Sequence record: NC_007827.1
DNA: 6,259 nt
Source of the DNA: Escherichia phage NC29
Reading direction: 5' to 3' (one strand)
The translations under genes and the position numbers were made by a program. This document shows positions 1 through 6,259 of the stretch, in pieces. The notes below the pieces were generated by a model. The model saw only the letters and a program-made list of their open reading frames with translations, was not told the DNA's origin and did not search any database. Positions within the stretch are counted from its first letter, which is position 1; every line of letters begins with the position of its first letter.

Positions 1-64
1 TTATTGACAACTCCCAATCCCTTATGAGACTCTTGCTTCAATTAAATGACGTAGGAGTCTTTTT

Positions 65-433
65 ATGAAACCCGCTCATCGCCTTACTCATCCAATTCTT
101 GGTTCTTGGTTGTTTAAGTGTCCTGTTTATATTCGTTATGAGTCGCTTCATCATGGTCGCCTTATCAAGGTCCGTGCTGTTCGTGATTTGTCCCCTCGTC
201 AACGATTGATTGCTAATCCTAAGAATTGCTTTGACGTTGTTATTGCTGAAATTGATCTTACTTATGAAACCGTTACTTGGTTTGATTTTATGGATGAGGA
301 ATATGCCGCGTGTACCCCCGAGGTTATGCAGCTTCTCATTTCCTCTATTGACTCTTCTGATGTTATTCGTTCTGTAGAAGACCCGACCGTTGATTCAGGT
401 GATATGGATTGGCTTTATGAAATTGTGGAGTAA
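65..433 (+). CDS. hypothetical protein, H-A spacer ORF1 (122 aa; basic N-terminal half, strongly acidic C-terminal half)
   Basis: ATG at 65 preceded by SD-like TAGGAG (52-57, 7-nt spacing); uninterrupted 122-codon frame ending TAA 431-433; third codon positions strongly T-biased like the core phage genes; no resemblance I can recognise to phiX174 proteins A-H. Confidence 0.6.
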   Translation: MKPAHRLTHPILGSWLFKCPVYIRYESLHHGRLIKVRAVRDLSPRQRLIANPKNCFDVVIAEIDLTYETVTWFDFMDEEYAACTPEVMQLLISSIDSSDVIRSVEDPTVDSGDMDWLYEIVE

Positions 434-436
434 TTT

Positions 437-529
437 ATGGAAACTGTTATCGGAAAATTTATTGCTCTGGCTGTTGTTGCTCTTATGCTGTATGGAATTT
501 CCCGCTTGATTAGTAGGACTTTGAAATGA
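437..529 (+). CDS. hypothetical small hydrophobic peptide, H-A spacer ORF2 (30 aa, METVIGKFIALAVVALMLYGISRLISRTLK)
   Basis: ATG 437 lies 3 nt after the ORF1 stop, with GGAG (427-430) at 6-nt spacing; a hydrophobic core long enough for one transmembrane helix followed by a basic tail; T-biased third positions. Below the 60-aa cutoff of the supplied ORF track, found by hand translation. Confidence 0.4.
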   Translation: METVIGKFIALAVVALMLYGISRLISRTLK

Positions 530-702
530 AGTATTTTAGCCTTGTGGATGAACACTATGCTTATTGCCCTGATTCGCGCATTTTGCACATCACTCGTAGT
601 CGTGTTTCTGACCCTCGGTATGAGCGTCGTTTTCTTACTGATGAGGAGCATCTTGCACTTCTGGATTGGTTGAAAAATCGCCCAACTTATATTAATTCTT
701 GA
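526..702 (+). CDS. hypothetical protein, H-A spacer ORF3 (58 aa, MKYFSLVDEHYAYCPDSRILHITRSRVSDPRYERRFLTDEEHLALLDWLKNRPTYINS)
   Basis: ATG 526-528 overlaps the ORF2 stop TGA 527-529 (ATGA coupling); AGGA (515-518) at 7-nt spacing; T-biased third positions; stop TGA 700-702. Found by hand translation. Confidence 0.5.
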   Translation: MKYFSLVDEHYAYCPDSRILHITRSRVSDPRYERRFLTDEEHLALLDWLKNRPTYINS

Positions 703-728
703 CAAGTCTTTGATACACCGTCTATATT
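699..728 (+). promoter_or_regulatory. sigma70-like promoter upstream of gene A (pA-like): TTGACA - 18 nt - TATATT
   Basis: -35 TTGACA at 699-704 (6/6 consensus), 18-nt spacer, -10 TATATT at 723-728 (5/6); position equivalent to phiX174 pA just upstream of gene A. Confidence 0.45.
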
Positions 729-759
729 GCCCTCATAGTGATTCTACGAGGGCTTTTTT
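729..759 (+). terminator. intrinsic terminator-like hairpin plus T6 tract (T_H-like) immediately upstream of the gene A start
   Basis: GCCCTC (729-734) pairs with GAGGGC (748-753) and TAG (736-738) with CTA (744-746), 5-nt loop, followed by TTTTTT 754-759; GC-rich stem plus U-tract is the classic rho-independent architecture. Confidence 0.55.
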
Positions 760-761
760 GC

Positions 762-2246
762 ATGGCTACTGAAAACTTCTTCGATGTTGTTAAGACCGTC
801 TGGTCCCACGCTACGGCTAAGCACGCCCATCTTCGTATGGCTGTTCAGGTTGATAACCGCAGTCGCCTTCTCTCTGACCTCGTTTATCAGTTGGAAAAAC
901 GTCTTTCTGAAGAAACTCATCTGGATGATGAGACTTATTCCCTTTATGAATCTCAAACTGGTTTCTTGGAAGACCATATGTCTCTGGTTCGGAAGTGTGC
1001 TGCCCAACTTGATAATAGTAACACTATAGACCACCGTACCTCTTTGGATGCCGAATGTGTTTTCCTGTTTGAAATGATTTGCCCGGGTGTTCGCTACGGT
1101 AAAACGTTGAATTCTCTTTGGACTAAGTATGTTGCTCAATGGCCTGAGAAGTTAATTCGTCAAGAGTTAGACATGGTTAAGCCTTTATCCTTTAAGGATG
1201 AGGTTGCTAGGTACATGGAGAAGATGCAGGAAAAAACACGCAAAAATCGCATGACTCAAAAAGTAATTAATGAGATGCGTATTGCTCACCAAAAGGGCTG
1301 GTTTTTCGTATTTGATACTTTGACACTTGCTGATGACCGTTTGCAGGCTTTTAATGAAAACCCCAATGCTCTTCGTGATTATTTCAGGACTGTTGGTCGA
1401 GCTGTTCTGCGCGCTGAAGGTCGTTCGGTTAAGGATTCCTACAACGACTGCTATCGCTATCTTTGTGTGCCGGAGTTTGGAGGTCAGCACGGTCGTCTTC
1501 ATTGGCACGTTGTGCATATGGTGCGGACTCTTCCTTTGGGAAGTCACGACCCTAATTTCGGTCGCAAGGTACGTAATTATCGCCAGATTAACTCGTTCCG
1601 TGGCATGTGGCCTTATGGCTTCACGCAACCGATAGCTGTACGCTATCAACATGATGCTTATTCTCGCAAAGGTTGGTTGTGGCCTGTTGACAAATCAGGT
1701 AAAGCAATGCAGAGTAAGCCCTATCAGGCGGTCGCATGGTATGTGACCAAGTATGTAGCCAAGCAATCTGACCAGCGTCAGAAAGCTATTACTGAGAGAC
1801 AAAAAAAATGCAAGAATCCACTTATGGCAATCTGTCTGAAAAAGGAATTCAGAGTTCGCAGCAGCCGGAAGCTCGGAATGGAGTTACCGTCGATGGCGCA
1901 TCTCAGCAACAAAGTGCTTCTGGAGCTGAGTCGAATCAGCTTCGATTCCAGCCCTCTGTATCAGATAGTGAAAGAGAACGCCAAAAAGCAATTGACCTTG
2001 AACATCGGCGCGCTGCCTTTGCACGTCATTTTGGATGTGCGCCCGGAAGTGAGAAGTATGTTGAAAAATATCCGTCGTTTGATGAAAAAGACACCCGAGT
2101 TCAATTGGCAGAGTTCTATCGCTTCAATGACGGTCACCTTAAAAAATGGGGATATTTCTGATGAAGCACGTCAATACATTATTGATGCAGGAATTACGCC
2201 TTTTGATTTGCGAGCTAAAGCGACTCAAACTTTCGGCGGTAAGTGA
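762..2246 (+). CDS. A: replication initiation protein A (rolling-circle HUH endonuclease)
   Basis: Alignable along most of its length to phiX174 gpA as I remember it: HUH motif in HGRLHWHVVHMVRTLP, twin catalytic tyrosines in YVTKYVAKQSD, and GWFFVFDTLTLADDRL. The track ORF begins at GTG 738; I prefer the first ATG (762, MATENFF...). Stop TGA 2244-2246. Confidence 0.9.
   Translation: MATENFFDVVKTVWSHATAKHAHLRMAVQVDNRSRLLSDLVYQLEKRLSEETHLDDETYSLYESQTGFLEDHMSLVRKCAAQLDNSNTIDHRTSLDAECVFLFEMICPGVRYGKTLNSLWTKYVAQWPEKLIRQELDMVKPLSFKDEVARYMEKMQEKTRKNRMTQKVINEMRIAHQKGWFFVFDTLTLADDRLQAFNENPNALRDYFRTVGRAVLRAEGRSVKDSYNDCYRYLCVPEFGGQHGRLHWHVVHMVRTLPLGSHDPNFGRKVRNYRQINSFRGMWPYGFTQPIAVRYQHDAYSRKGWLWPVDKSGKAMQSKPYQAVAWYVTKYVAKQSDQRQKAITERQKKCKNPLMAICLKKEFRVRSSRKLGMELPSMAHLSNKVLLELSRISFDSSPLYQIVKENAKKQLTLNIGALPLHVILDVRPEVRSMLKNIRRLMKKTPEFNWQSSIASMTVTLKNGDISDEARQYIIDAGITPFDLRAKATQTFGGK
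1015..1044 (+). other. viral (+) strand replication origin, 30-nt gpA recognition/nick site inside gene A
   Basis: CAACTTGATAATAGTAACACTATAGACCAC matches the phiX174 30-nt origin CAACTTGATATTAATAACACTATAGACCAC (from memory) at 28/30 positions, both differences in the AT-rich spacer; the expected nick is between G1021 and A1022. Confidence 0.75.
1224..2246 (+). CDS. A*: A* (in-frame internal restart of A), start codon tentative
   Basis: phiX174 A* begins at an internal Met (MKSRRGF...) about 25 residues before the conserved GWF motif; the equivalent position here is flanked by in-frame ATGs at 1215, 1224 and 1251. None has a convincing SD, so the exact start is not determinable from sequence. 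Confidence 0.3.
   Translation: MQEKTRKNRMTQKVINEMRIAHQKGWFFVFDTLTLADDRLQAFNENPNALRDYFRTVGRAVLRAEGRSVKDSYNDCYRYLCVPEFGGQHGRLHWHVVHMVRTLPLGSHDPNFGRKVRNYRQINSFRGMWPYGFTQPIAVRYQHDAYSRKGWLWPVDKSGKAMQSKPYQAVAWYVTKYVAKQSDQRQKAITERQKKCKNPLMAICLKKEFRVRSSRKLGMELPSMAHLSNKVLLELSRISFDSSPLYQIVKENAKKQLTLNIGALPLHVILDVRPEVRSMLKNIRRLMKKTPEFNWQSSIASMTVTLKNGDISDEARQYIIDAGITPFDLRAKATQTFGGK
1808..2161 (+). CDS. B: internal scaffolding protein B (encoded within A in another frame)
   Basis: 117 aa; C-terminus ...RVQLAEFYRFNDGHLKKWGYF parallels phiX174 gpB ...RIQPAEFYRFHDAEVNTFGYF; acidic, Q/S-rich N-terminal half; entirely nested in gene A. Confidence 0.85.
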   Translation: MQESTYGNLSEKGIQSSQQPEARNGVTVDGASQQQSASGAESNQLRFQPSVSDSERERQKAIDLEHRRAAFARHFGCAPGSEKYVEKYPSFDEKDTRVQLAEFYRFNDGHLKKWGYF

Positions 2247-2322
2247 CCCGAATTTTTCTCAGGAGAAGATTCATGCTGAGCTCGACTCGTTACTACGCAA
2301 GTTATCGCGCTACTTTGACTAA
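2161..2322 (+). CDS. K: protein K (small overlapping gene spanning the A/C junction)
   Basis: Hand translation from ATG 2161 (overlapping B stop TGA 2159-2161) gives 53 aa MKHVNTLLMQELRLLICELKRLKLSAVSDPNFSQEKIHAELDSLLRKLSRYFD; the N-terminal leucine-rich segment resembles phiX174 gpK (..KQELLLLVYEL..); overlaps the 3' end of A and the 5' end of C as in phiX174. Confidence 0.7.
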   Translation: MKHVNTLLMQELRLLICELKRLKLSAVSDPNFSQEKIHAELDSLLRKLSRYFD

Positions 2323-2479
2323 GCAGCTTATGTTTTTGACTAAAGCTGACTTTACCAATGATGATGAAAAATGGCTTAATGCCTTTGGTAATTTGCTCCG
2401 TCAGTGGTTTCAGATTGAGGATTGGAAAGGTAATCACAAAAAATTGCTTGACGATTTGAAAAACAGGCATTATATTTAA
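2273..2479 (+). CDS. C: protein C (DNA replication switch / packaging)
   Basis: ATG 2273 with AGGAG (2261-2265) at 7-nt spacing; 68 aa; ...TKADFTNDDEKWLNAFGNLLRQWFQIEDW resembles phiX174 gpC ...KTDALDEEKWLNMLGTFVKDWFRYESH. The track ORF starts at GTG 2243; ATG 2273 preferred. Confidence 0.8.
   Translation: MLSSTRYYASYRATLTKQLMFLTKADFTNDDEKWLNAFGNLLRQWFQIEDWKGNHKKLLDDLKNRHYI
2448..2476 (+). promoter_or_regulatory. sigma70-like promoter at the 3' end of gene C (pD-like): TTGACG - 17 nt - TATATT
   Basis: -35 TTGACG 2448-2453 (5/6), 17-nt spacer, -10 TATATT 2471-2476 (5/6) overlapping the last codons of C; best promoter match I found in the window; pD lies within C in phiX174. Confidence 0.5.
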
Positions 2480-2712
2480 CTCATAGATAAATGAAGCAGT
2501 GGTGCAAAGTAGTTTATCTAAGTGGTAAGTTCAGTGAAGGGTGACCCGCTCTAAGTAGCTGAAGGGTGTTGGATGTAAGGACTCCGCGATTGACTGGTTT
2601 ATACTGGAACACTATCGGGTCAGTGAAGTGGCTGCTGAGAAATAGCCCTCTAGCTTTACGAAGACTAGGCTACATCGCGAACACCATTGTTACTTTTTTA
2701 TGGAGGATTTAT

Positions 2713-3171
2713 ATGTCTAATCTTGTTGCTACCGATGTTAATTTTGCTACCTCTGTTGCTGCTCTGAAGATGCTTCAGGCTTCTGCTGTTCTTGATATCA
2801 CTGAGGAAGATTTCGATTTTCTGACTGGTGATAAGATTTGGATTGCTACTGACCGCAATCGTGCTCGTCGTTGTGTTGAGGCGTGTGTTTATGGAACGCT
2901 GGACTTTGTTGGATACCCTCGCTTTCCTGCTCCTGTTGAGTTTATTGCTGCCGTCATTGCTTATTATGTTCATCCCGTCAACATTCAGACGGCCTGTCTC
3001 ATCATGGAAGGCGCTGAGTTTACGGAGAACATTGTTAATGGCGTCGAACGTCCGGTTAAAGCCGCTGAACTCTTTGCGTACACCTTGCGTGTTAAGGCTG
3101 GATTCAAAGAAACGGTTCTGAGTGCTGAAGATAATGCTCGTCAGAAACTTCGTGCAAGTGGAGTTATGTAA
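2713..3171 (+). CDS. D: external scaffolding protein D
   Basis: 152 aa; ATG 2713 with GGAGG (2702-2706) at 6-nt spacing; near-identical over long stretches to phiX174 gpD (LQASAVLD.TE.DFDFLT...WIATDR.RARRCVEACVYGTLDFVGYPRFPAPVEFIAAVIAYYVHPVNIQTACLIMEGAEFTEN). Confidence 0.95.
   Translation: MSNLVATDVNFATSVAALKMLQASAVLDITEEDFDFLTGDKIWIATDRNRARRCVEACVYGTLDFVGYPRFPAPVEFIAAVIAYYVHPVNIQTACLIMEGAEFTENIVNGVERPVKAAELFAYTLRVKAGFKETVLSAEDNARQKLRASGVM
2891..3121 (+). CDS. E: lysis protein E (embedded in D, +1 frame)
   Basis: 76 aa; MERWTLLDTLAFLLLLSLLLPSLLIMFIPSTFRRPVSSWKAL... is nearly identical to the phiX174 E N-terminal transmembrane domain, including the conserved Pro21. Confidence 0.85.
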   Translation: MERWTLLDTLAFLLLLSLLLPSLLIMFIPSTFRRPVSSWKALSLRRTLLMASNVRLKPLNSLRTPCVLRLDSKKRF

Positions 3172-3172
3172 T

Positions 3173-3247
3173 ATGAAAAAGGCTCGTCGTTCTCCTTCTC
3201 GTAAGAAAGGTGCCCGTCTCTGGTATGTAGGCGGTTCTCAATTTTAA
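3173..3247 (+). CDS. J: small basic DNA-binding/packaging protein J (24 aa)
   Basis: Hand translation MKKARRSPSRKKGARLWYVGGSQF; the C-terminus KGARLWYVGG.QF matches phiX174 gpJ, while the short 24-aa length is typical of alpha3/G4-type J; starts 1 nt after the D stop. Confidence 0.85.
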   Translation: MKKARRSPSRKKGARLWYVGGSQF

Positions 3248-3252
3248 TTAAT

Positions 3253-3278
3253 GGGCTTCGGCCCCTATAAGGATTTTT
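3253..3278 (+). terminator. cUUCGg tetraloop hairpin in the J-F spacer (T_J-like terminator or mRNA 3' stabiliser), overlapping the F ribosome-binding site
   Basis: GGGC (3253-3256) / TTCG loop / GCCC (3261-3264), then CTATAAGGATTTTT; SD TAAGGA 3268-3273 sits 7 nt before the F ATG. phiX174 has a terminator in the J-F spacer. Confidence 0.35.
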
Positions 3279-3280
3279 AA

Positions 3281-4564
3281 ATGTCAAATGTACAAACTTC
3301 CGCTGAGCGTATCCCTCATGACCTGTCTCATCTGGTTTTTGAAGCAGGCAAAATTGGTCGTTTAAAAGTTGTTTCTTGGACTCCTGTTGTTGCAGGTGAT
3401 TCTTTTGAGCTTGATATGATTGGCGCTATTCGCCTCTCCCCGCTTCGTCGTGGTCTTGCTGTTGACTCTCGCGTTGACTTGTTCACGTTTTATGTTCCTC
3501 ATCGTCATGTATATGGTGAGCAGTGGATTGAGTTTATTAAGGAAGGTGTCAATGCTCCACCGTTGGCTCCTGTTCAGTGCTCTCGTGGTTGGGATAGTGC
3601 GCAGTATCTCGCTACTATTCCGTCTTCTAACTTAAAGGTTCCTAAGTTCCTTCATCAAGGTTACTTGAACATTTACAATAACTATTTTAAAGCTCCGTGG
3701 ATGGATGACTTGACTTATGCCAACCCATCTAATATGGAAGGTGAAGATGTTCGTTTTGGTGTTCGTGCATGTAATTTAAAAACTATCTGGACTGCTCCGC
3801 TTCCTCCAGATACTGAGACTTCTCATTCTATGGAGACCGAGACCAACTCCATTGACATTATGGGTTTACAGGCCGCTTATGCTCAATTACATACCGAGCA
3901 GGAGCGTGATTACTTCATGACTCGTTATCGTGATATTGTTAACGAATTTGGTGGTAGTACTTCTTATGATGCGGATAATCGTCCTTTGCTTGTTATGCAT
4001 TCTGAGTTCTGGGCCTCAGGCTATGACGTCGACGGCACCGACCAAAGCTCTCTCGGTCAGTTCTCCGGTCGTGTTCAGCAGACGTTTAAGCATTCAGTAC
4101 CGCGATTCTTCTGTCCTGAGCATGGCACTATGTTCACACTCGCATTGGTCCGCTTCCCTCCGACTCATGAAATGGAGATGCATTACTTAGTTGGTAAAGA
4201 AAATTTGACTTATACTGATCTGGCTTGTGATCCTGCTTTGATGGCTAACTTGCCTCCGCGTGAGGTTAATATGTCTCAGTTCTTCCATTCTGGAAGTGCT
4301 AGTGCTAAGTTTAAGATCGCTGAGGGTCAGTGGTATCGTATGCAGCCTGACCGCGTTGCATTGCCGTATAACTATCTTGATGGTTTTCCGTTCTATAGTG
4401 CGATTCCGTCTCATGATATTAAGCAGCGTGTTCTGGTTAATACTGATAACTATGATGAGGTTTTCCAGTCTATGCAGCTTGCACACTGGAATATGCAGAC
4501 TAAGTTTAACTGCACGATTTATCGTAATATGCCGACCACTCGTGATTCTATTATGACCTCTTGA
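3281..4564 (+). CDS. F: major capsid protein F
   Basis: 427 aa; long blocks match phiX174 gpF (MSN.QT.AER.PHDLSHL, LRLSPLRRGLA.DS.VD.FTFYVPHRHVYGEQWI, QGYLNIYNNYFKAPWM, SIDIMGLQAAYA.LHT.QERDYFM.RYRD, SYDADNRPLLVM, GYDVDGTDQ.SLGQFSGRVQQT.KHSVPRFF.PEHGTMFTLALVRFPPT, TTRDSIMTS). Confidence 0.95.
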   Translation: MSNVQTSAERIPHDLSHLVFEAGKIGRLKVVSWTPVVAGDSFELDMIGAIRLSPLRRGLAVDSRVDLFTFYVPHRHVYGEQWIEFIKEGVNAPPLAPVQCSRGWDSAQYLATIPSSNLKVPKFLHQGYLNIYNNYFKAPWMDDLTYANPSNMEGEDVRFGVRACNLKTIWTAPLPPDTETSHSMETETNSIDIMGLQAAYAQLHTEQERDYFMTRYRDIVNEFGGSTSYDADNRPLLVMHSEFWASGYDVDGTDQSSLGQFSGRVQQTFKHSVPRFFCPEHGTMFTLALVRFPPTHEMEMHYLVGKENLTYTDLACDPALMANLPPREVNMSQFFHSGSASAKFKIAEGQWYRMQPDRVALPYNYLDGFPFYSAIPSHDIKQRVLVNTDNYDEVFQSMQLAHWNMQTKFNCTIYRNMPTTRDSIMTS

Positions 4565-4570
4565 TTATGT

Positions 4571-4587
4571 GGGGCTTCGGCCCCCTT
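4571..4587 (+). terminator. cUUCGg tetraloop hairpin in the F-G spacer (T_F-like terminator or mRNA 3' stabiliser)
   Basis: GGGGC (4571-4575) / TTCG loop / GCCCC (4580-4584), then CTTT; followed by SD TAAGGA 4588-4593, 7 nt before the G ATG; near-duplicate of the J-F module. Confidence 0.35.
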
Positions 4588-4600
4588 TAAGGATTTGATT

Positions 4601-5146
4601 ATGTTTCAAGTTTATGTAGCTAAGCATGTTGCTCCTTTTACTTCTATGAACCGTACCTTTTCTATCTCTCCTGCTGCTGCCCCGCAGGTTGTCAATTCTG
4701 GTGAGATTGTTGCAGGTCGTTCTACTTTTCGTATTGCTTCCTCTATTGGTTCTGCTTCTAATGGTAATGGTTTCGCATTCGTTCAGATGATGGACCCTAA
4801 CTCTCCTGATTCTCAACAGGTTTTCTCTGTTGCTGCGTCGCTATCTTTTAGTGTTGACTCGAATTATGTTCCTTGCGTTGTTCGTTTTGAAAGTAGTTTC
4901 TCTCAGCCTGGTCAATTTGCTATTGCTGAGGCTGATTTTATTCCGGTTGAGTCGTCAGCTCTTTCTGCTCGTGCGCTTAGCGTTCGTGATTGTGTTACTG
5001 TTGATGTTAAGCCTCGCGCTGAAGGTAATAATGTTTTTGTTGGACTGTTCTTGTCTTCTGCCGCCGCTAATGCTGGTAATGTTACTGGTGTCATTTCTAT
5101 GGCTCAGGTTGACCATGAAGTTACAGCTTTGCAGCCTCTTAAATAA
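4601..5146 (+). CDS. G: major spike protein G
   Basis: 181 aa from ATG 4601 (track ORF starts at TTG 4595); MFQ... N-terminus and CVVRFESS, DCVT.DV.PR..GNNV.VG, and C-terminal LQPLK match phiX174 gpG. Confidence 0.9.
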   Translation: MFQVYVAKHVAPFTSMNRTFSISPAAAPQVVNSGEIVAGRSTFRIASSIGSASNGNGFAFVQMMDPNSPDSQQVFSVAASLSFSVDSNYVPCVVRFESSFSQPGQFAIAEADFIPVESSALSARALSVRDCVTVDVKPRAEGNNVFVGLFLSSAAANAGNVTGVISMAQVDHEVTALQPLK

Positions 5147-5160
5147 AAGGCCGCCGCACT

Positions 5161-5256
5161 CTCGGTTATATGCCTGCCCAGTGTAGGGCGGACCGAGCCG
5201 TACGGAGATACCCGTGAAACTAGGAACGTGGAAGGCGTTAGCCGCCTTCCCTCCTG
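5161..5256 (+). other. candidate complementary (-) strand origin: three consecutive stem-loops in the GC-rich G-H spacer
   Basis: Hairpins: CTCGGT 5161-5166 / ACCGAG 5192-5197 enclosing 5174-5179 / 5186-5191; ACGG 5202-5205 / CCGT 5212-5215; GGAAGGCG 5230-5237 / CGCCTTCC 5243-5250 (perfect 8-bp stem, 5-nt loop); CTG at 5254-5256 just 3' of the last hairpin. G4-type phages prime at a multi-hairpin origin with DnaG alone. Confidence 0.4.
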
Positions 5257-5281
5257 CTAAGCCCAAAGGAGACTTTCAGCT

Positions 5282-6259
5282 ATGTTAGGTGCCGTTGTTG
5301 GTGGTATTGCTTCAGCCTTAGCCGGTGGAGCAGCTTCTAAGTTGTTTGGTGGTAAGCCTGCCTCTCAGGCCGCTACCGAATCCGCTGGCCTTTCTAATGG
5401 TCAAGGTGTTATTGGTATGGACCAAGATGCCGGTATTCAGTCCGCTATTCAGGGTTCAAATGTCCCAAATGGTCAGATTCCCGCTCCTACTACTACAGGT
5501 GGCGTTATGTCTGATGCTGGTAATATGATTAAGAATGCTGGTAAAGATTTGCTTGATGGTGTTATGACTGCCGGTAGTGACCGTGTTAAGCAGGCTTTGA
5601 TTGACAGATTGGGTGGTAATAATGCAAAGAGACAAGGAAAAGCAACCCGTGATTACTTGGCTGCAGCCTTCCCTGAACTCAATGCATGGGAACGTGCTGG
5701 AGCTGTTGCTTCCGGCTCCGGCTTGGAATCTTCCAGTCAGGACCAGCAGAAAGAGTTGATGCGAATGCAGCTGGACAATCAGAAAGATATTGCGAAGATG
5801 CAGATGCAGAATAATTTGCAGATTGCTGGTATTCAGTCCGCTACTTCTCGTCAAAATACGAAGGATTCTGTTTATGCTCAGAATGAGATGCTTCAGTACA
5901 ATCAACGTGAGTCACAGGCACGTGTTGAGTCTATCCTTGCCAACACTAACCTTACGGATAAACAGGCTACCCATGAAATCATGAGGATGGCCCTTACTCG
6001 TGCTCAGGAGACTGGTCAGCATTTGACTAACTCTCAGATTATTGCTTTGGAGAAAAAGGTTTATGCAGAAATTGGAAAAATTCATCAAGATACTCAAAAC
6101 TCTCGCTATGGTAGCTCTCAAGTTACTGCTGCGGCGAAAGATGTTACGAATATGATTACCGATGCCGCCTCAGGTGCTGCTGATTGGGCCTCTCAGCAAT
6201 GGAATTCGTTCTTCAAGGATGGTAAGTCTAATGGCATTCCTCTTAACACCAGAAAATAA
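5282..6259 (+). CDS. H: minor spike / DNA pilot protein H
   Basis: 325 aa; N-terminus M.GA..GGIASALAGGA.SKLFGG and internal TRDYLAAAFPELNAWERAGA, IAGIQSATSRQNTKD.VYAQNEML.Y match phiX174 gpH; AGGAG-like AAGGAG 5266-5271 upstream; stop TAA is the last three bases of the window. Confidence 0.9.
   Translation: MLGAVVGGIASALAGGAASKLFGGKPASQAATESAGLSNGQGVIGMDQDAGIQSAIQGSNVPNGQIPAPTTTGGVMSDAGNMIKNAGKDLLDGVMTAGSDRVKQALIDRLGGNNAKRQGKATRDYLAAAFPELNAWERAGAVASGSGLESSSQDQQKELMRMQLDNQKDIAKMQMQNNLQIAGIQSATSRQNTKDSVYAQNEMLQYNQRESQARVESILANTNLTDKQATHEIMRMALTRAQETGQHLTNSQIIALEKKVYAEIGKIHQDTQNSRYGSSQVTAAAKDVTNMITDAASGAADWASQQWNSFFKDGKSNGIPLNTRK

What the first reader, a model, noticed from the sequence alone, without database searches (positions are those of the whole stretch)
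1..6259. Window is probably a complete circular genome of an alpha3/St-1-like microvirus, linearised just after H
All canonical genes are present once, in order, and H ends with the last base of the window while H-A spacer sequence begins at base 1. The total length (6259 nt) is in the range I recall for alpha3-group coliphages (about 6.1 kb) and not phiX174 (5386 nt). Diagnostic traits are the 24-aa J, the long H-A and C-D spacers and the short F-G spacer. If so, the three extra ORFs and the spacers are intrinsic parts of a very small genome, where unexplained sequence is unusual.
Basis: inference. Interest (0 to 1): 0.4.

Follow-up and report, generated by a model that had tools for sequence, protein, structure and literature searches.

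The report
Microvirus genome with captured structured RNA
The window is a complete circular alpha3-group microvirus genome, and all of its extra length is a ~205-nt, highly structured, undescribed RNA element that otherwise sits at the start of early transcripts in unrelated tailed phages, so one of the smallest DNA viruses has captured a non-coding RNA from them.

Summary
The window is a complete, circular alpha3-group (Alphatrevirus) microvirus genome cut just after gene H. It has all 11 canonical genes, the gpA nicking origin, a G4-type origin in the G-H spacer and a 761-nt H-A region. It is colinear with NC3, ID32 and WA13 (about 92-93% identity), and a permuted relative reads straight across the 6259/1 join. 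It is probably coliphage NC29 (inference only).

Relatives have 26-43 nt (NC3 73 nt) against 233 nt here, which explains the extra ~160-220 nt.

The spacer holds a foreign block (about 2465-2688) running from the P_D -10 hexamer through a ~205-nt RNA with 11 helices and a pseudoknot. On 17 copies, 96% of cells are paired against 33-44% in slid controls, and 39 of 52 pairs show compensatory changes.

Homologues lie just downstream of sigma70-type promoters in Kuravirus, 7-11-like, SP6-like and rV5-like phages. None was found in E. coli genomes, plasmids, 185,579 species genomes (one signature scan) or Rfam.

Four independent microvirus assemblies carry the same element, on two structural-gene backbones, so it is real and heritable.

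Its function is unknown. My best guess is a 5'-terminal leader that acts on host-RNAP transcripts by antitermination or stabilisation.

The parts
1..6259 (+). Complete circular Alphatrevirus (alpha3-group) genome, linearised after the H stop codon
   Evidence: Colinear 1-6259 with complete circular NC3/ID32/NC35/WA13 at 92-93% identity. The junction is contiguous in permuted contig L021.
65..433 (+). orf122, a group-specific putative gene in the H-A region
   Evidence: Intact at 122 aa in NC3, WA13, ID21, L019 and L021, but broken in the alpha3 and St-1 records. About 2-fold third-position bias (21/19/43). 19 homologues, on microvirus-sized contigs (~0.6-6.3 kb), some extended to 154 aa. No Pfam or PHROG match.
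437..529 (+). orf30, a small hydrophobic putative gene
   Evidence: Intact (29-30 aa) in 7 of 7 relatives. No second-codon-position changes in six of the seven (L019 has 3).
526..702 (+). orf58, a conserved but unannotated protein-coding gene
   Evidence: Intact at 58 aa in 7 of 7 relatives. Differences from alpha3 are 5/0/12 by codon position, with 12 synonymous and 2 non-synonymous codon changes. 10 homologues, all on microvirus-sized contigs (~0.6-6.1 kb).
699..728 (+). P_A-like sigma70 promoter (TTGACA-18-TATATT)
   Evidence: Best + strand promoter match, 11 of 12, 34 nt upstream of the gene A start.
762..2246 (+). Gene A (replication initiator); B, K and the start of C overlap it
   Evidence: PF05840 at 2.7e-58. 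97% nucleotide identity to NC3.
1005..1034 (+). Viral-strand origin (gpA recognition and nicking 30-mer)
   Evidence: Matches the phiX174 30-mer with 2 mismatches; 0 of 200 shuffles give any match.
2448..2476 (+). P_D promoter: -35 TTGACG from the microvirus, -10 TATATT inside the acquired block
   Evidence: Second-best + strand promoter, 10 of 12. Relatives have TACATT as the -10. Divergence from relatives begins about 15 nt before the C stop codon.
2465..2688 (+). Horizontally acquired block, replacing the 43-nt C-D spacer of relatives and the last codons of C (KKRDYI* becomes KNRHYI*)
   Evidence: Alignment to NC3 and WA13 breaks at 2477/2702. Spacer comparison. The right boundary is defined by comparing microvirus copies on different D backbones.
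2485..2684 (+). Structured RNA element. Helices: P1 2485-2492/2512-2519; P2 2496-98/2503-05; P3 2530-35/2558-63; P4 2539-42/2547-51; P5 2566-70/2680-84; P6 2572-77/2671-76; P7 2584-89/2615-19; P8 2594-98/2603-07; pseudoknot S1 2621-24/2634-37 and S2 2630-33/2644-47; P10 2649-54/2663-69
   Evidence: Covariance model R1 hit at 2472-2691, 162 bits, E about 1e-40, a single copy on the + strand. Covariation on alignment A2. Coordinates.
2713..3171 (+). Gene D (external scaffold), with E embedded at 2891-3121
   Evidence: PF02925 at 4.7e-78 and PF04517 at 2.3e-17.
3173..3247 (+). Gene J (24 aa)
   Evidence: PF04726 at 7.4e-14. 100% amino-acid identity to NC3 and WA13.
3281..4564 (+). Gene F (capsid)
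   Evidence: PF02305 at 1.3e-158.
4601..5146 (+). Gene G (major spike)
   Evidence: PF02306 at 2.5e-26.
5147..5281 (+). G-H spacer: homologue of the G4-type complementary-strand origin
   Evidence: 89-98% identical across the alpha3 group. 79.6% identical over 141 nt to the region just upstream of gene G in G4-like phages ID52, NC6 and vB_1081. The assignment as a primase-dependent origin rests on my knowledge of the literature (Sims, Capon and Dressler 1979; Fiddes et al. 1978).
5282..6259 (+). Gene H (pilot protein); its stop codon is the last three bases of the window
   Evidence: PF04687 at 1.3e-95.

Best explanation
SHOWN. The window is a whole circular ssDNA genome of an alpha3-group microvirus (Alphatrevirus, WA13/NC3 clade; probably coliphage NC29). 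It has the standard gene set and cis elements.

Its only architectural departure is in the C-D spacer. A block of about 224 nt (about 2465-2688) replaces the usual 43-nt spacer. The block begins between the -35 and -10 hexamers of the D promoter. It supplies a better -10 (TATATT) and a ~205-nt RNA that starts at the predicted transcription start (about 2483). The RNA folds into two tandem 'stem - GAA - hairpin - AAGUA - stem' modules, followed by a multi-helix 3' domain with an H-type pseudoknot. The fold is supported by extensive compensatory substitutions.

The same RNA, preceded by a sigma70-type promoter, occurs in sense orientation at the head of early operons in at least four unrelated groups of virulent tailed phages. 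It occurs in four other microvirus assemblies.

INFERRED. A microvirus acquired the promoter-proximal RNA cassette from a co-infecting, still unsampled tailed phage by illegitimate or microhomology recombination inside analogous promoters. The cassette then spread among alphatreviruses together with gene C by homologous recombination. As a result, every P_D transcript (D-E-J-F-G-H, the most abundant mRNA) now carries this RNA at its 5' end.

MOST LIKELY MECHANISM (speculative, about 0.3). The RNA is a cis-acting, put-like module that modifies the host RNA polymerase transcribing it, so that the polymerase reads through downstream terminators. In the microvirus those would be the terminators after J, F, G and H. 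A 5'-terminal stem that protects against RNase E would be a minimal additional effect.
For: Genome identity and completeness.

Extra length confined to the C-D spacer.

The insert is not an internal duplication and is present once.

Homologues in tailed phages, always unannotated and in sense orientation relative to downstream genes.

Structure:
- RNAalifold on an unfitted MAFFT alignment gives 36 pairs, 28 of them with compensatory changes.
- My 52-pair model has 96.1% of cells paired against 33-44% in slid controls. 39 of 52 pairs have double changes (0 of 500 shuffles reach this). The covariation score is 0.576 against at most 0.119. All 11 helices, including both pseudoknot stems, are supported.
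- Many G.U pairs on the + strand point to a sense-strand RNA.

Not coding.

Promoter cassette: a sigma70-type promoter whose -10 ends 14-18 nt before the invariant GAAG in 14 of 18 copies.

Experimental support from phage 7-11:
- The annotated sigma70 promoter at 129->101 (minus strand) abuts the element, and the record is permuted so that these promoters lie upstream of gene 151.
- PMC8948821 validated two of the three promoters in front of gene 151 in vivo from 5 min post-infection. It also states that an undefined antitermination strategy is needed.

Absent elsewhere: 5,426 E. coli genomes, 72,556 plasmids, 185,579 species genomes (one two-module signature pattern) and Rfam 15.

Real and heritable in microviruses:
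- L103, L113 (a 6293-nt circle), L114 and L115 come from independent samples and carry the element, at 90-96% identity over the segment from P_D through the start of gene D, on two different D-H backbones.
- Among the microvirus copies, 6 of 112 paired columns vary against 12 of 88 unpaired columns. One compensatory G-C to A-U switch arose within microviruses.

Direction of transfer: tailed-phage copies differ from one another far more (41-64% identity to the window, three length variants plus short forms) than microvirus copies do.
Against: No reads were available, so circularity rests on colinearity and a relative's permuted contig.

The transcription start and the existence of the RNA in microvirus-infected cells are predicted, not measured.

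The donor is unsampled. The window's copy is closest to different lineages in different segments: Vequintavirinae for P1/P2, Kuravirus for P7 to the pseudoknot, and Era103 for P5/P6/P10.

The function is unknown.
- There is no sequence or structure homology to the HK022 put region (best 3.8 bits).
- In 7-11 and SE131, about 1 kb of unannotated sequence separates the element from the next gene, so it is not always a short leader.
- The P2 tetraloop is GNRA in tailed phages but GUGG or GCGG in all microvirus copies, which may mean a tertiary contact was lost.
- In 4 of 18 copies the best promoter match is weak (7 of 12) or the distance is longer (27-39 nt).

The motif may already be among the more than 10,000 unnamed candidates of PMC10690425. 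I could not check this because the supplements are not held.
Confidence: 0.8

Rival explanations
1. The long C-D spacer is an assembly or cloning chimera, or contamination from a co-sequenced tailed phage.
For: The block has its only homologues in tailed phages. None of the 569 microvirus records in the phage collection has it.
Against: Four independent public assemblies from different runs (L103, L113, L114, L115) carry the same block at the same site, with 4-10% divergence and structure-preserving substitutions. The block is only 75-79% identical to any tailed-phage copy. Its boundaries sit at functional positions: between the -35 and -10 hexamers, and upstream of the D ribosome-binding site.
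Confidence: 0.01
2. The RNA is a 5'-terminal stabiliser or translation enhancer. A stem at the extreme 5' end blocks 5'-end-dependent RNase E attack and keeps the leader Rho-resistant, so that more protein is made from the downstream genes.
For: P1 begins 1-2 nt after the predicted start site in the window. In 14 of 18 copies the -10 ends 14-18 nt before the GAAG anchor. Where the scan found an SD-preceded start codon (16 of 18 copies), it lies 19-116 nt after the element, within 63 nt in 13 copies. The identity of the downstream gene is irrelevant. The rule that a 5' stem-loop with at most 2-4 unpaired leading nucleotides stabilises E. coli mRNA comes from my knowledge of the literature (Emory, Bouvet and Belasco 1992).
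Against: A single hairpin would be enough for that effect. Eleven covarying helices, a pseudoknot and about 45 invariant unpaired nucleotides imply a specific partner or tertiary fold. In 7-11 and SE131 the next gene is about 1 kb away.
Confidence: 0.25
3. The RNA acts in trans as a decoy or sponge for a host factor or an anti-phage defence component. It would be made first and in large amounts at infection.
For: It is always behind host-type promoters at the very start of early regions, in strictly virulent phages of enterobacteria. It is absent from bacterial genomes, prophages and plasmids. The repeated GAA/AAGUA internal-loop modules look like reiterated binding sites. The family is mobile between unrelated phages, as anti-defence cargo often is.
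Against: No terminator or conserved processing site delimits a discrete small RNA. No similarity to any known RNA target, antitoxin or CRISPR repeat in Rfam. No partner has been identified.
Confidence: 0.25
4. The element is ancestral to alphatreviruses, or moved from microviruses into tailed phages, and most microviruses have lost it.
For: It is found on two different structural-gene backbones (window/L115 against L113/L114).
Against: Microvirus copies are 90-96% identical (measured over the 300-nt segment from P_D through the start of gene D) and all are linked to one identical gpC allele. Tailed-phage copies span 41-64% identity to the window, with three length variants plus short forms, across at least four virus groups. 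All other alphatrevirus genomes examined have short spacers with no remnant: 24 full-length records and about 10 metagenomic contigs.
Confidence: 0.07
5. The block works at the DNA level, for example as a second single-strand priming signal (ssi or complementary-strand origin) on the packaged + strand, or as a cluster of protein-binding sites.
For: Microvirus + strands do use folded ssDNA origins, and the block lies on the packaged strand.
Against: Its homologues are in dsDNA phages, always co-oriented with transcription and fused to a promoter. Helices are kept through G.U intermediates that would be A.C on the other strand. There is no similarity to the G-H origin of the same genome.
Confidence: 0.03

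Closest known systems
Coliphages NC3, ID32, NC35 and WA13, and the species Alphatrevirus NC29 (Rokyta et al. 2006 collection)
   Same: Same gene order, same linearisation, 92-93% nucleotide identity over 96-97% of the window, and the same H-A ORF block, origins and promoters. NC29 is the only Alphatrevirus species missing from the collection, and accession DQ079879 is absent while DQ079870-78 are present. The window may therefore be NC29 itself (inference).
   Different: All sampled relatives have a 42-73-nt C-D spacer, a KKRDYI gpC C-terminus and TACATT as the P_D -10. The window has 233 nt, KNRHYI and TATATT, plus the RNA element.
HK022 putL/putR processive-antitermination RNAs
   Same: Works-like analogy only. 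Both are cis-encoded RNAs made of stem-loop modules with essential internal loops, lying just downstream of host-RNAP early promoters of a phage, independent of downstream gene identity. The minimal form of the element (7-11, SE131, Bas86) is two tandem stem-loops.
   Different: No detectable homology (best 3.8 bits with filters off). The full form is about three times longer, with a pseudoknotted 3' domain. Antitermination activity has not been tested.
5'-terminal stabilising stem-loops (ompA leader, T4 gene 32 leader)
   Same: A helix at the extreme 5' end of an abundant transcript.
   Different: Those are single hairpins. This is an 11-helix fold with many invariant unpaired bases, conserved across virus realms.
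Large phage-associated orphan RNAs (for example GOLLD, ROOL, HEARO) and the unnamed candidates of Fremin et al. 2023 (PMC10690425)
   Same: A phage-borne, covariation-supported structured RNA of unknown function.
   Different: No Rfam 15 family matches any of six members tested. It is smaller (about 200 nt), fused to a promoter, specific to virulent enterobacterial phages, and present in an ssDNA microvirus. I could not check whether it is among the unnamed 2023 candidates.

Membership tests
Alphatrevirus (alpha3-group Bullavirinae) | Eleven genes A(A*)-B-K-C-D-E-J-F-G-H on one strand, with the B/K/E overlaps | tested here: met
   ORFs and lengths are identical to NC3 and WA13. Pfam or PHROG matches for all ten proteins scanned; A* is an in-frame internal start in A and was not scanned separately.
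Alphatrevirus (alpha3-group Bullavirinae) | Genome-wide nucleotide similarity to type members | tested here: met
   92.9% to NC3 over 96% of the window. 85% to alpha3 and St-1 over 80-82%.
Alphatrevirus (alpha3-group Bullavirinae) | H-A region of about 760 nt with a conserved ORF block; 24-aa J; short F-G spacer | tested here: met
   761 nt with orf122, orf30 and orf58 conserved. J is 24 aa. The F-G spacer is 36 nt.
Alphatrevirus (alpha3-group Bullavirinae) | gpA nicking origin inside gene A, and a G4-type complementary-strand origin in the G-H spacer | tested here: met
   30-mer at 1005-1034 with 2 mismatches. The G-H spacer is homologous to the region upstream of G in G4-like phages. Activity was not tested.
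Alphatrevirus (alpha3-group Bullavirinae) | Circular ssDNA genome | tested here: inconclusive
   The window's ends are contiguous in a permuted relative. L113, which carries the same element, closes into a 6293-nt circle. No reads for this genome were available, and strandedness cannot be tested.
   The group has 26-43 nt, and NC3 has 73 nt from a tandem triplication. This is not a family trait, so failing it does not affect membership.
Any Rfam 15 RNA family (for the insert) | Covariance-model match | tested here: not met
   No match at E up to 10 on the insert alone, nor at E up to 0.5 on five other members.
HK022 put antitermination RNA | Homology in sequence and structure | tested here: not met
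   Model R1 with filters off over HK022 23000-40751: best score 3.8 bits.
HK022 put antitermination RNA | Cis-acting RNA downstream of a host-RNAP promoter that makes RNAP terminator-resistant | not testable with these tools
   The position fits. PMC8948821 notes an unexplained need for antitermination in 7-11.
Riboswitch | Association with one gene family, and an expression platform overlapping a terminator or Shine-Dalgarno sequence | tested here: not met
   The downstream genes are unrelated: gpD, various hypotheticals of 50-182 aa, or none for about 1 kb. P5 ends 19-63 nt before the detected start codon in 13 of 18 copies and does not overlap the Shine-Dalgarno sequence. No terminator follows.
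Protein-coding gene (for the insert) | A conserved open frame and codon-periodic substitution | tested here: not met
   No frame is open across members. Differences are 23/24/27 by position mod 3. Most indels are 1 nt.
Single-strand initiation signal / G4-type origin (for the insert) | Similarity to known origins, and function tied to ssDNA | tested here: not met
   No similarity to the genome's own G-H origin. Homologues reside in dsDNA phages fused to promoters. Priming activity was not tested.

The most novel reading that the evidence does not exclude
The C-D element defines a new class of phage regulatory RNA. It is promoter-fused, about 200 nt long and pseudoknotted. It would reprogram host RNA polymerase, or neutralise a host factor, from the first seconds of infection. 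It would be beneficial and portable enough to have crossed from tailed dsDNA phages (Duplodnaviria) into a 6-kb ssDNA microvirus (Monodnaviria). There it is kept under structural selection despite pushing the genome about 3% above the group's usual length.
Probability: 0.45. Interest if true: 0.85.

Novelty: new variant of a known kind. Interest (0 to 1): 0.68.

Why it matters
Bullavirinae are the textbook case of minimal, overlapping-gene genomes. They are thought to evolve almost without foreign DNA; by my recollection of Rokyta et al. 2006, horizontal transfer was seen only between microvirid clades.

Here a microvirus lineage carries a complex non-coding RNA whose only relatives are in tailed phages. 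This shows cross-realm capture of a non-coding module by promoter-to-promoter recombination.

The RNA itself is absent from Rfam, yet it is conserved at the head of early, host-RNAP-made transcripts in Kuravirus, 7-11-like, SP6-like and rV5-like phages. It therefore probably serves a general early-infection function that has not been described.

The microvirus offers the simplest possible system to find that function. It has 6 kb, one promoter-leader, natural near-isogenic relatives with and without the element, and easy synthetic genetics.

Tried and rejected
- Internal duplication as the source of the extra length: no repeat family involves 2478-2701.
- tRNA or tmRNA: none found.
- Thermodynamic signal from a single sequence: z-scores of -0.19 (sense) and +0.11 (antisense). 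Single-sequence folding is uninformative here, and only comparative analysis reveals the fold.
- Rfam: only chance-level hits, Chlorobi-1 (E 0.88) and CRISPR-DR38 (E 6.4).
- Exact-pattern scans of IMG/VR with 14-18-mers: mostly chance hits. nhmmer and the covariance model kept only about 8 true loci out of about 75.
- Variant-A signature in metagenomes: three contigs, all Kuravirus, no microvirus. The same signature in IMG/VR gave none.
- NC3's longer spacer as a remnant of the insert: rejected. It is a tandem triplication of TACATTTGAGCTCTC.
- Unusually long microvirus contigs (6193-6303 nt; L104, L105, L108, L111) as further carriers: rejected. Their C-D spacers are 26-43 nt and the model finds nothing.
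- HK022 put homology: none. My first HK022 fetch missed the PL/PR region and was repeated.
- Exact look-up of this gpH: not on record.
- Rokyta et al. 2006 could not be read, either by DOI or by PMC id. A literature search for NC29 was uninformative, as were searches for Kuravirus non-coding RNA and for phage early-promoter structured RNAs.
- DQ079877, guessed as the window's accession, is the 5538-nt G4-like phage ID52.
- MFE-based automatic tracing of P1 failed and was replaced by anchored pairing.

Full report
1. OBSERVATION

The window contains, once each and in order on the + strand, A (762-2246), B, K, C (2273-2479), D (2713-3171), E, J (24 aa), F, G and H (5282-6259). The H stop codon is the last three bases of the window. 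Nine proteins pass their Pfam gathering scores, and K matches a microvirus PHROG.

Megablast against 50,697 phage records gives full-length, colinear matches that start at base 1 of complete circular records. These are NC3 (92.9%), ID32, NC35 and WA13 (about 92%), and alpha3, phiK and St-1 (about 85% over 80-83%).

The phiX174-type gpA origin 30-mer is at 1005-1034, with 2 mismatches and no chance matches in 200 shuffles. The two best + strand sigma70-like promoters lie in front of A (699-728) and at the end of C, in front of D (2448-2476). The 135-nt G-H spacer is conserved in the group. It is 79.6% identical to the region upstream of gene G in G4-like phages, where the primase-dependent complementary-strand origin lies (the origin assignment is from my own knowledge).

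No reads were available, so circularity was tested indirectly. A circularly permuted Logan contig of a relative (L021) aligns in one HSP across the window's end joined to its start.

The genome is 162-220 nt longer than every full-length relative (6039-6097 nt). The whole excess sits in the C-D spacer. It is 233 nt here, 26 nt in alpha3 and St-1, 42-43 nt in WA13, ID21 and three metagenomic relatives, and 73 nt in NC3, where the extra length is an unrelated tandem triplication. A long C-D spacer is therefore not a trait of the group.

Divergence from relatives starts about 15 nt before the C stop codon. This changes gpC from ...KKRDYI to ...KNRHYI and the P_D -10 from TACATT to TATATT. Comparison of microvirus copies on different D backbones places the right boundary at about 2688.

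3. WHAT THE BLOCK IS

It is not an internal duplication, not a tRNA and not in Rfam. Its core matches, at 75-79% identity, unannotated DNA in ~76-kb Kuravirus coliphages.

Iterative searches extended the family to several groups:
- SP6-like Autographiviridae of Erwinia, Klebsiella, 'Ralstonia' and 'Pseudomonas';
- the 7-11/SE131 group of Salmonella;
- Vequintavirinae.

IMG/VR added four full copies and four copies with the 5' domain only. A metagenome scan found three more Kuravirus contigs.

Nothing was found in 5,426 complete E. coli genomes or 72,556 plasmids by BLAST, or in one genome for each of 185,579 prokaryotic species by a single two-module signature pattern.

In every tailed phage the element is unannotated and co-oriented with the genes downstream.

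4. IT IS A STRUCTURED RNA

A plain MAFFT alignment of 17 full-length copies (A2) gives an RNAalifold consensus of 36 pairs, 28 of which have compensatory double changes.

I wrote an 11-helix, 52-pair model that includes an H-type pseudoknot. Its counts are:
- 96.1% of cells paired, against 33-44% when partners are slid by 1-3 columns;
- 39 pairs with changes on both sides (0 of 500 shuffles reach this);
- a covariation score of 0.576, against at most 0.119 in slid controls;
- every helix supported.

The architecture has three parts:
- P1 encloses GAA-[3-bp stem plus tetraloop]-AAAGUAG.
- A second module has the same design (P3/P4).
- A 3' domain is closed by P5 and P6 and contains P7, P8 (only in the window/Kuravirus variant), pseudoknot stems S1 and S2, and hairpin P10.

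The GAA/AGUA internal loops resemble loop-E or sarcin-ricin motifs. That resemblance is an inference from sequence only.

Frequent G.U pairs on the + strand, the absence of any conserved reading frame, non-periodic substitutions and 1-nt indels exclude a protein and argue against a DNA-level role.

A covariance model (R1) finds exactly one copy in the window (2472-2691, 162 bits). It finds none in eleven other microvirus loci.

5. IT IS A PROMOTER-RNA CASSETTE

In 14 of 18 copies a sigma70-type promoter ends 14-18 nt before the invariant GAAG, and 12 of the 18 promoters score 9-11 of 12. P1 would therefore form the extreme 5' end of a host-RNAP transcript. Where the scan found an SD-preceded start codon (16 of 18 copies), it follows the element by 19-116 nt, within 63 nt in 13 of them.

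In the window the -35 is the microvirus's own. The -10, the start site (about 2483) and the RNA belong to the acquired block.

Phage 7-11 provides experimental context. Its annotated sigma70 promoter at 129->101 (minus strand) abuts the element. The record is permuted, so this promoter and its two neighbours lie upstream of gene 151. Primer extension validated two of those three promoters in vivo from 5 min post-infection. The authors also concluded that 7-11 must antiterminate its long early transcripts by an unknown means (PMC8948821).

6. IT IS REAL AND HERITABLE IN MICROVIRUSES

Homology searches with the H-A ORFs and exact look-ups of the window's gpC found four independent assemblies with the same element at the same site:
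- L103, which is 93% identical to the window;
- L113, which has a 30-nt end overlap and closes into a 6293-nt circle;
- L114, with a 233-nt spacer;
- L115, with a 230-nt spacer.

L113 and L114 carry alpha3/St-1-type D, F, G and H. The window and L115 carry WA13/NC3-type genes. All four assemblies encode an identical gpC. The cassette has therefore travelled with gene C between alphatrevirus backbones.

Among the microvirus copies, 6 of 112 paired columns vary against 12 of 88 unpaired columns. Four of the five variable pairs stay canonical, and one is a full G-C to A-U switch.

Microvirus copies are 90-96% identical over the 300-nt segment from P_D through the start of gene D, whereas tailed-phage copies are 41-64% identical to the window and come in several length variants. 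That pattern points to transfer from a tailed phage into a microvirus. The donor is unsampled, because the window's copy is closest to different lineages in different segments.

7. MECHANISM

Shown: the fold, the promoter fusion, the sense orientation, independence from the downstream gene, restriction to virulent phages, and early in vivo transcription of the locus in 7-11.

Inferred: every P_D transcript of this microvirus begins with the RNA.

My preferred function (about 0.3) is a put-like, cis-acting processive antiterminator. The reasons are that the minimal form is two stem-loop modules directly after a host-RNAP promoter, that the carriers depend on host RNAP for long early operons, and that microvirus gene dosage is set by terminators after J, F, G and H. 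There is no homology to HK022 put.

The rivals are a 5' stabiliser or translation enhancer (0.25), a trans-acting decoy or anti-defence RNA (0.25), and a selfish passenger (about 0.1).

8. THE H-A REGION

orf58 (526-702) is clearly coding: differences from alpha3 are 5/0/12 by codon position, it is intact in 7 of 7 relatives, and it has ten homologues on microvirus contigs only. orf30 (437-529) is intact in all seven relatives. orf122 (65-433) is under weaker constraint and is broken in the alpha3 and St-1 records. None of the three matches Pfam or PHROGs. I could not read that paper to confirm this.

9. NOVELTY AND VERDICT

The genome as such is ordinary and probably already public. It may be NC29: accession DQ079879 and that species are the only ones missing from the collection, which is an inference.

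What appears to be new is that its extra length is an undescribed structured RNA shared with tailed phages. This is the first such non-coding acquisition I am aware of in Bullavirinae. I could not check whether the motif is among the unnamed candidates of PMC10690425, or whether the 2006 paper commented on the spacer.

Noticed in passing
L001 (NC3) about 2462-2520: NC3's 73-nt C-D spacer contains three tandem copies of TACATTTGAGCTCTC. This triplicates the P_D -10 hexamer, the C stop codon and the first spacer bases. It is unrelated to the RNA insert.
   Followed up: partly
window 2566-2712: The frame of gene D is open upstream of its ATG back to a GTG at 2566, 49 codons inside the RNA element. 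There is no Shine-Dalgarno sequence, and the stretch lies inside helices P5-P10. It is probably a coincidence, but an N-terminally extended gpD is formally possible.
   Followed up: partly
window 2499-2502; same position in L103, L113, L114, L115: The P2 tetraloop is GNRA (GUGA or GCGA) in all tailed-phage copies, but GUGG (GCGG in L113) in all microvirus copies. A GNRA-dependent tertiary contact may have been lost or changed after the transfer.
   Followed up: no
L113 (Logan ERR14118107), whole contig: A 6293-nt circular alphatrevirus (30-nt end overlap). It has alpha3/St-1-type D, F, G and H, but carries the window's exact gpC and the RNA element. It is longer than the window and appears to be a recombinant backbone.
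   Followed up: partly
L016 (SE131) 1055-1164; NC_015938 (7-11) 105->1 on the minus strand; L017 (Bas86) 1183-1309; L081; L086: Short forms of the element consist only of the two 5' modules (P1-P4), so the 5' domain seems to be an autonomous unit. In 7-11 and SE131, about 1 kb of unannotated sequence lies between it and the next annotated gene.
   Followed up: partly
L104-L107, L111, L112 (P0026, P0028): In some alphatrevirus contigs the orf122 homologue is 154 aa, with an N-terminal extension. In L111 and L112 the orf30 gene is not called. The gene content of the H-A block varies within the group.
   Followed up: no
L012 (Ralstonia phage Reminis), L013 (Pseudomonas phage MR4) against L011 (Klebsiella phage KL01): The early regions, including the RNA element, are nearly the same as in Klebsiella SP6-like phages. 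The hosts named in these two records look doubtful.
   Followed up: no
window 2703-2709; L005 (MN03) just upstream of CDS 2726: The D ribosome-binding site of the window (GGAGGATT) resembles the site after the element in Kuravirus (GAGGATT) more than that of relatives (TAGGAGAAT). However, microvirus copies on alpha3-type backbones have their own versions, so the resemblance is probably coincidental.
   Followed up: partly
L008 (Era103) 822-1280: In Era103 an HNH endonuclease gene lies immediately upstream of the promoter-RNA cassette. This is a possible route for mobility of the region between phages.
   Followed up: no
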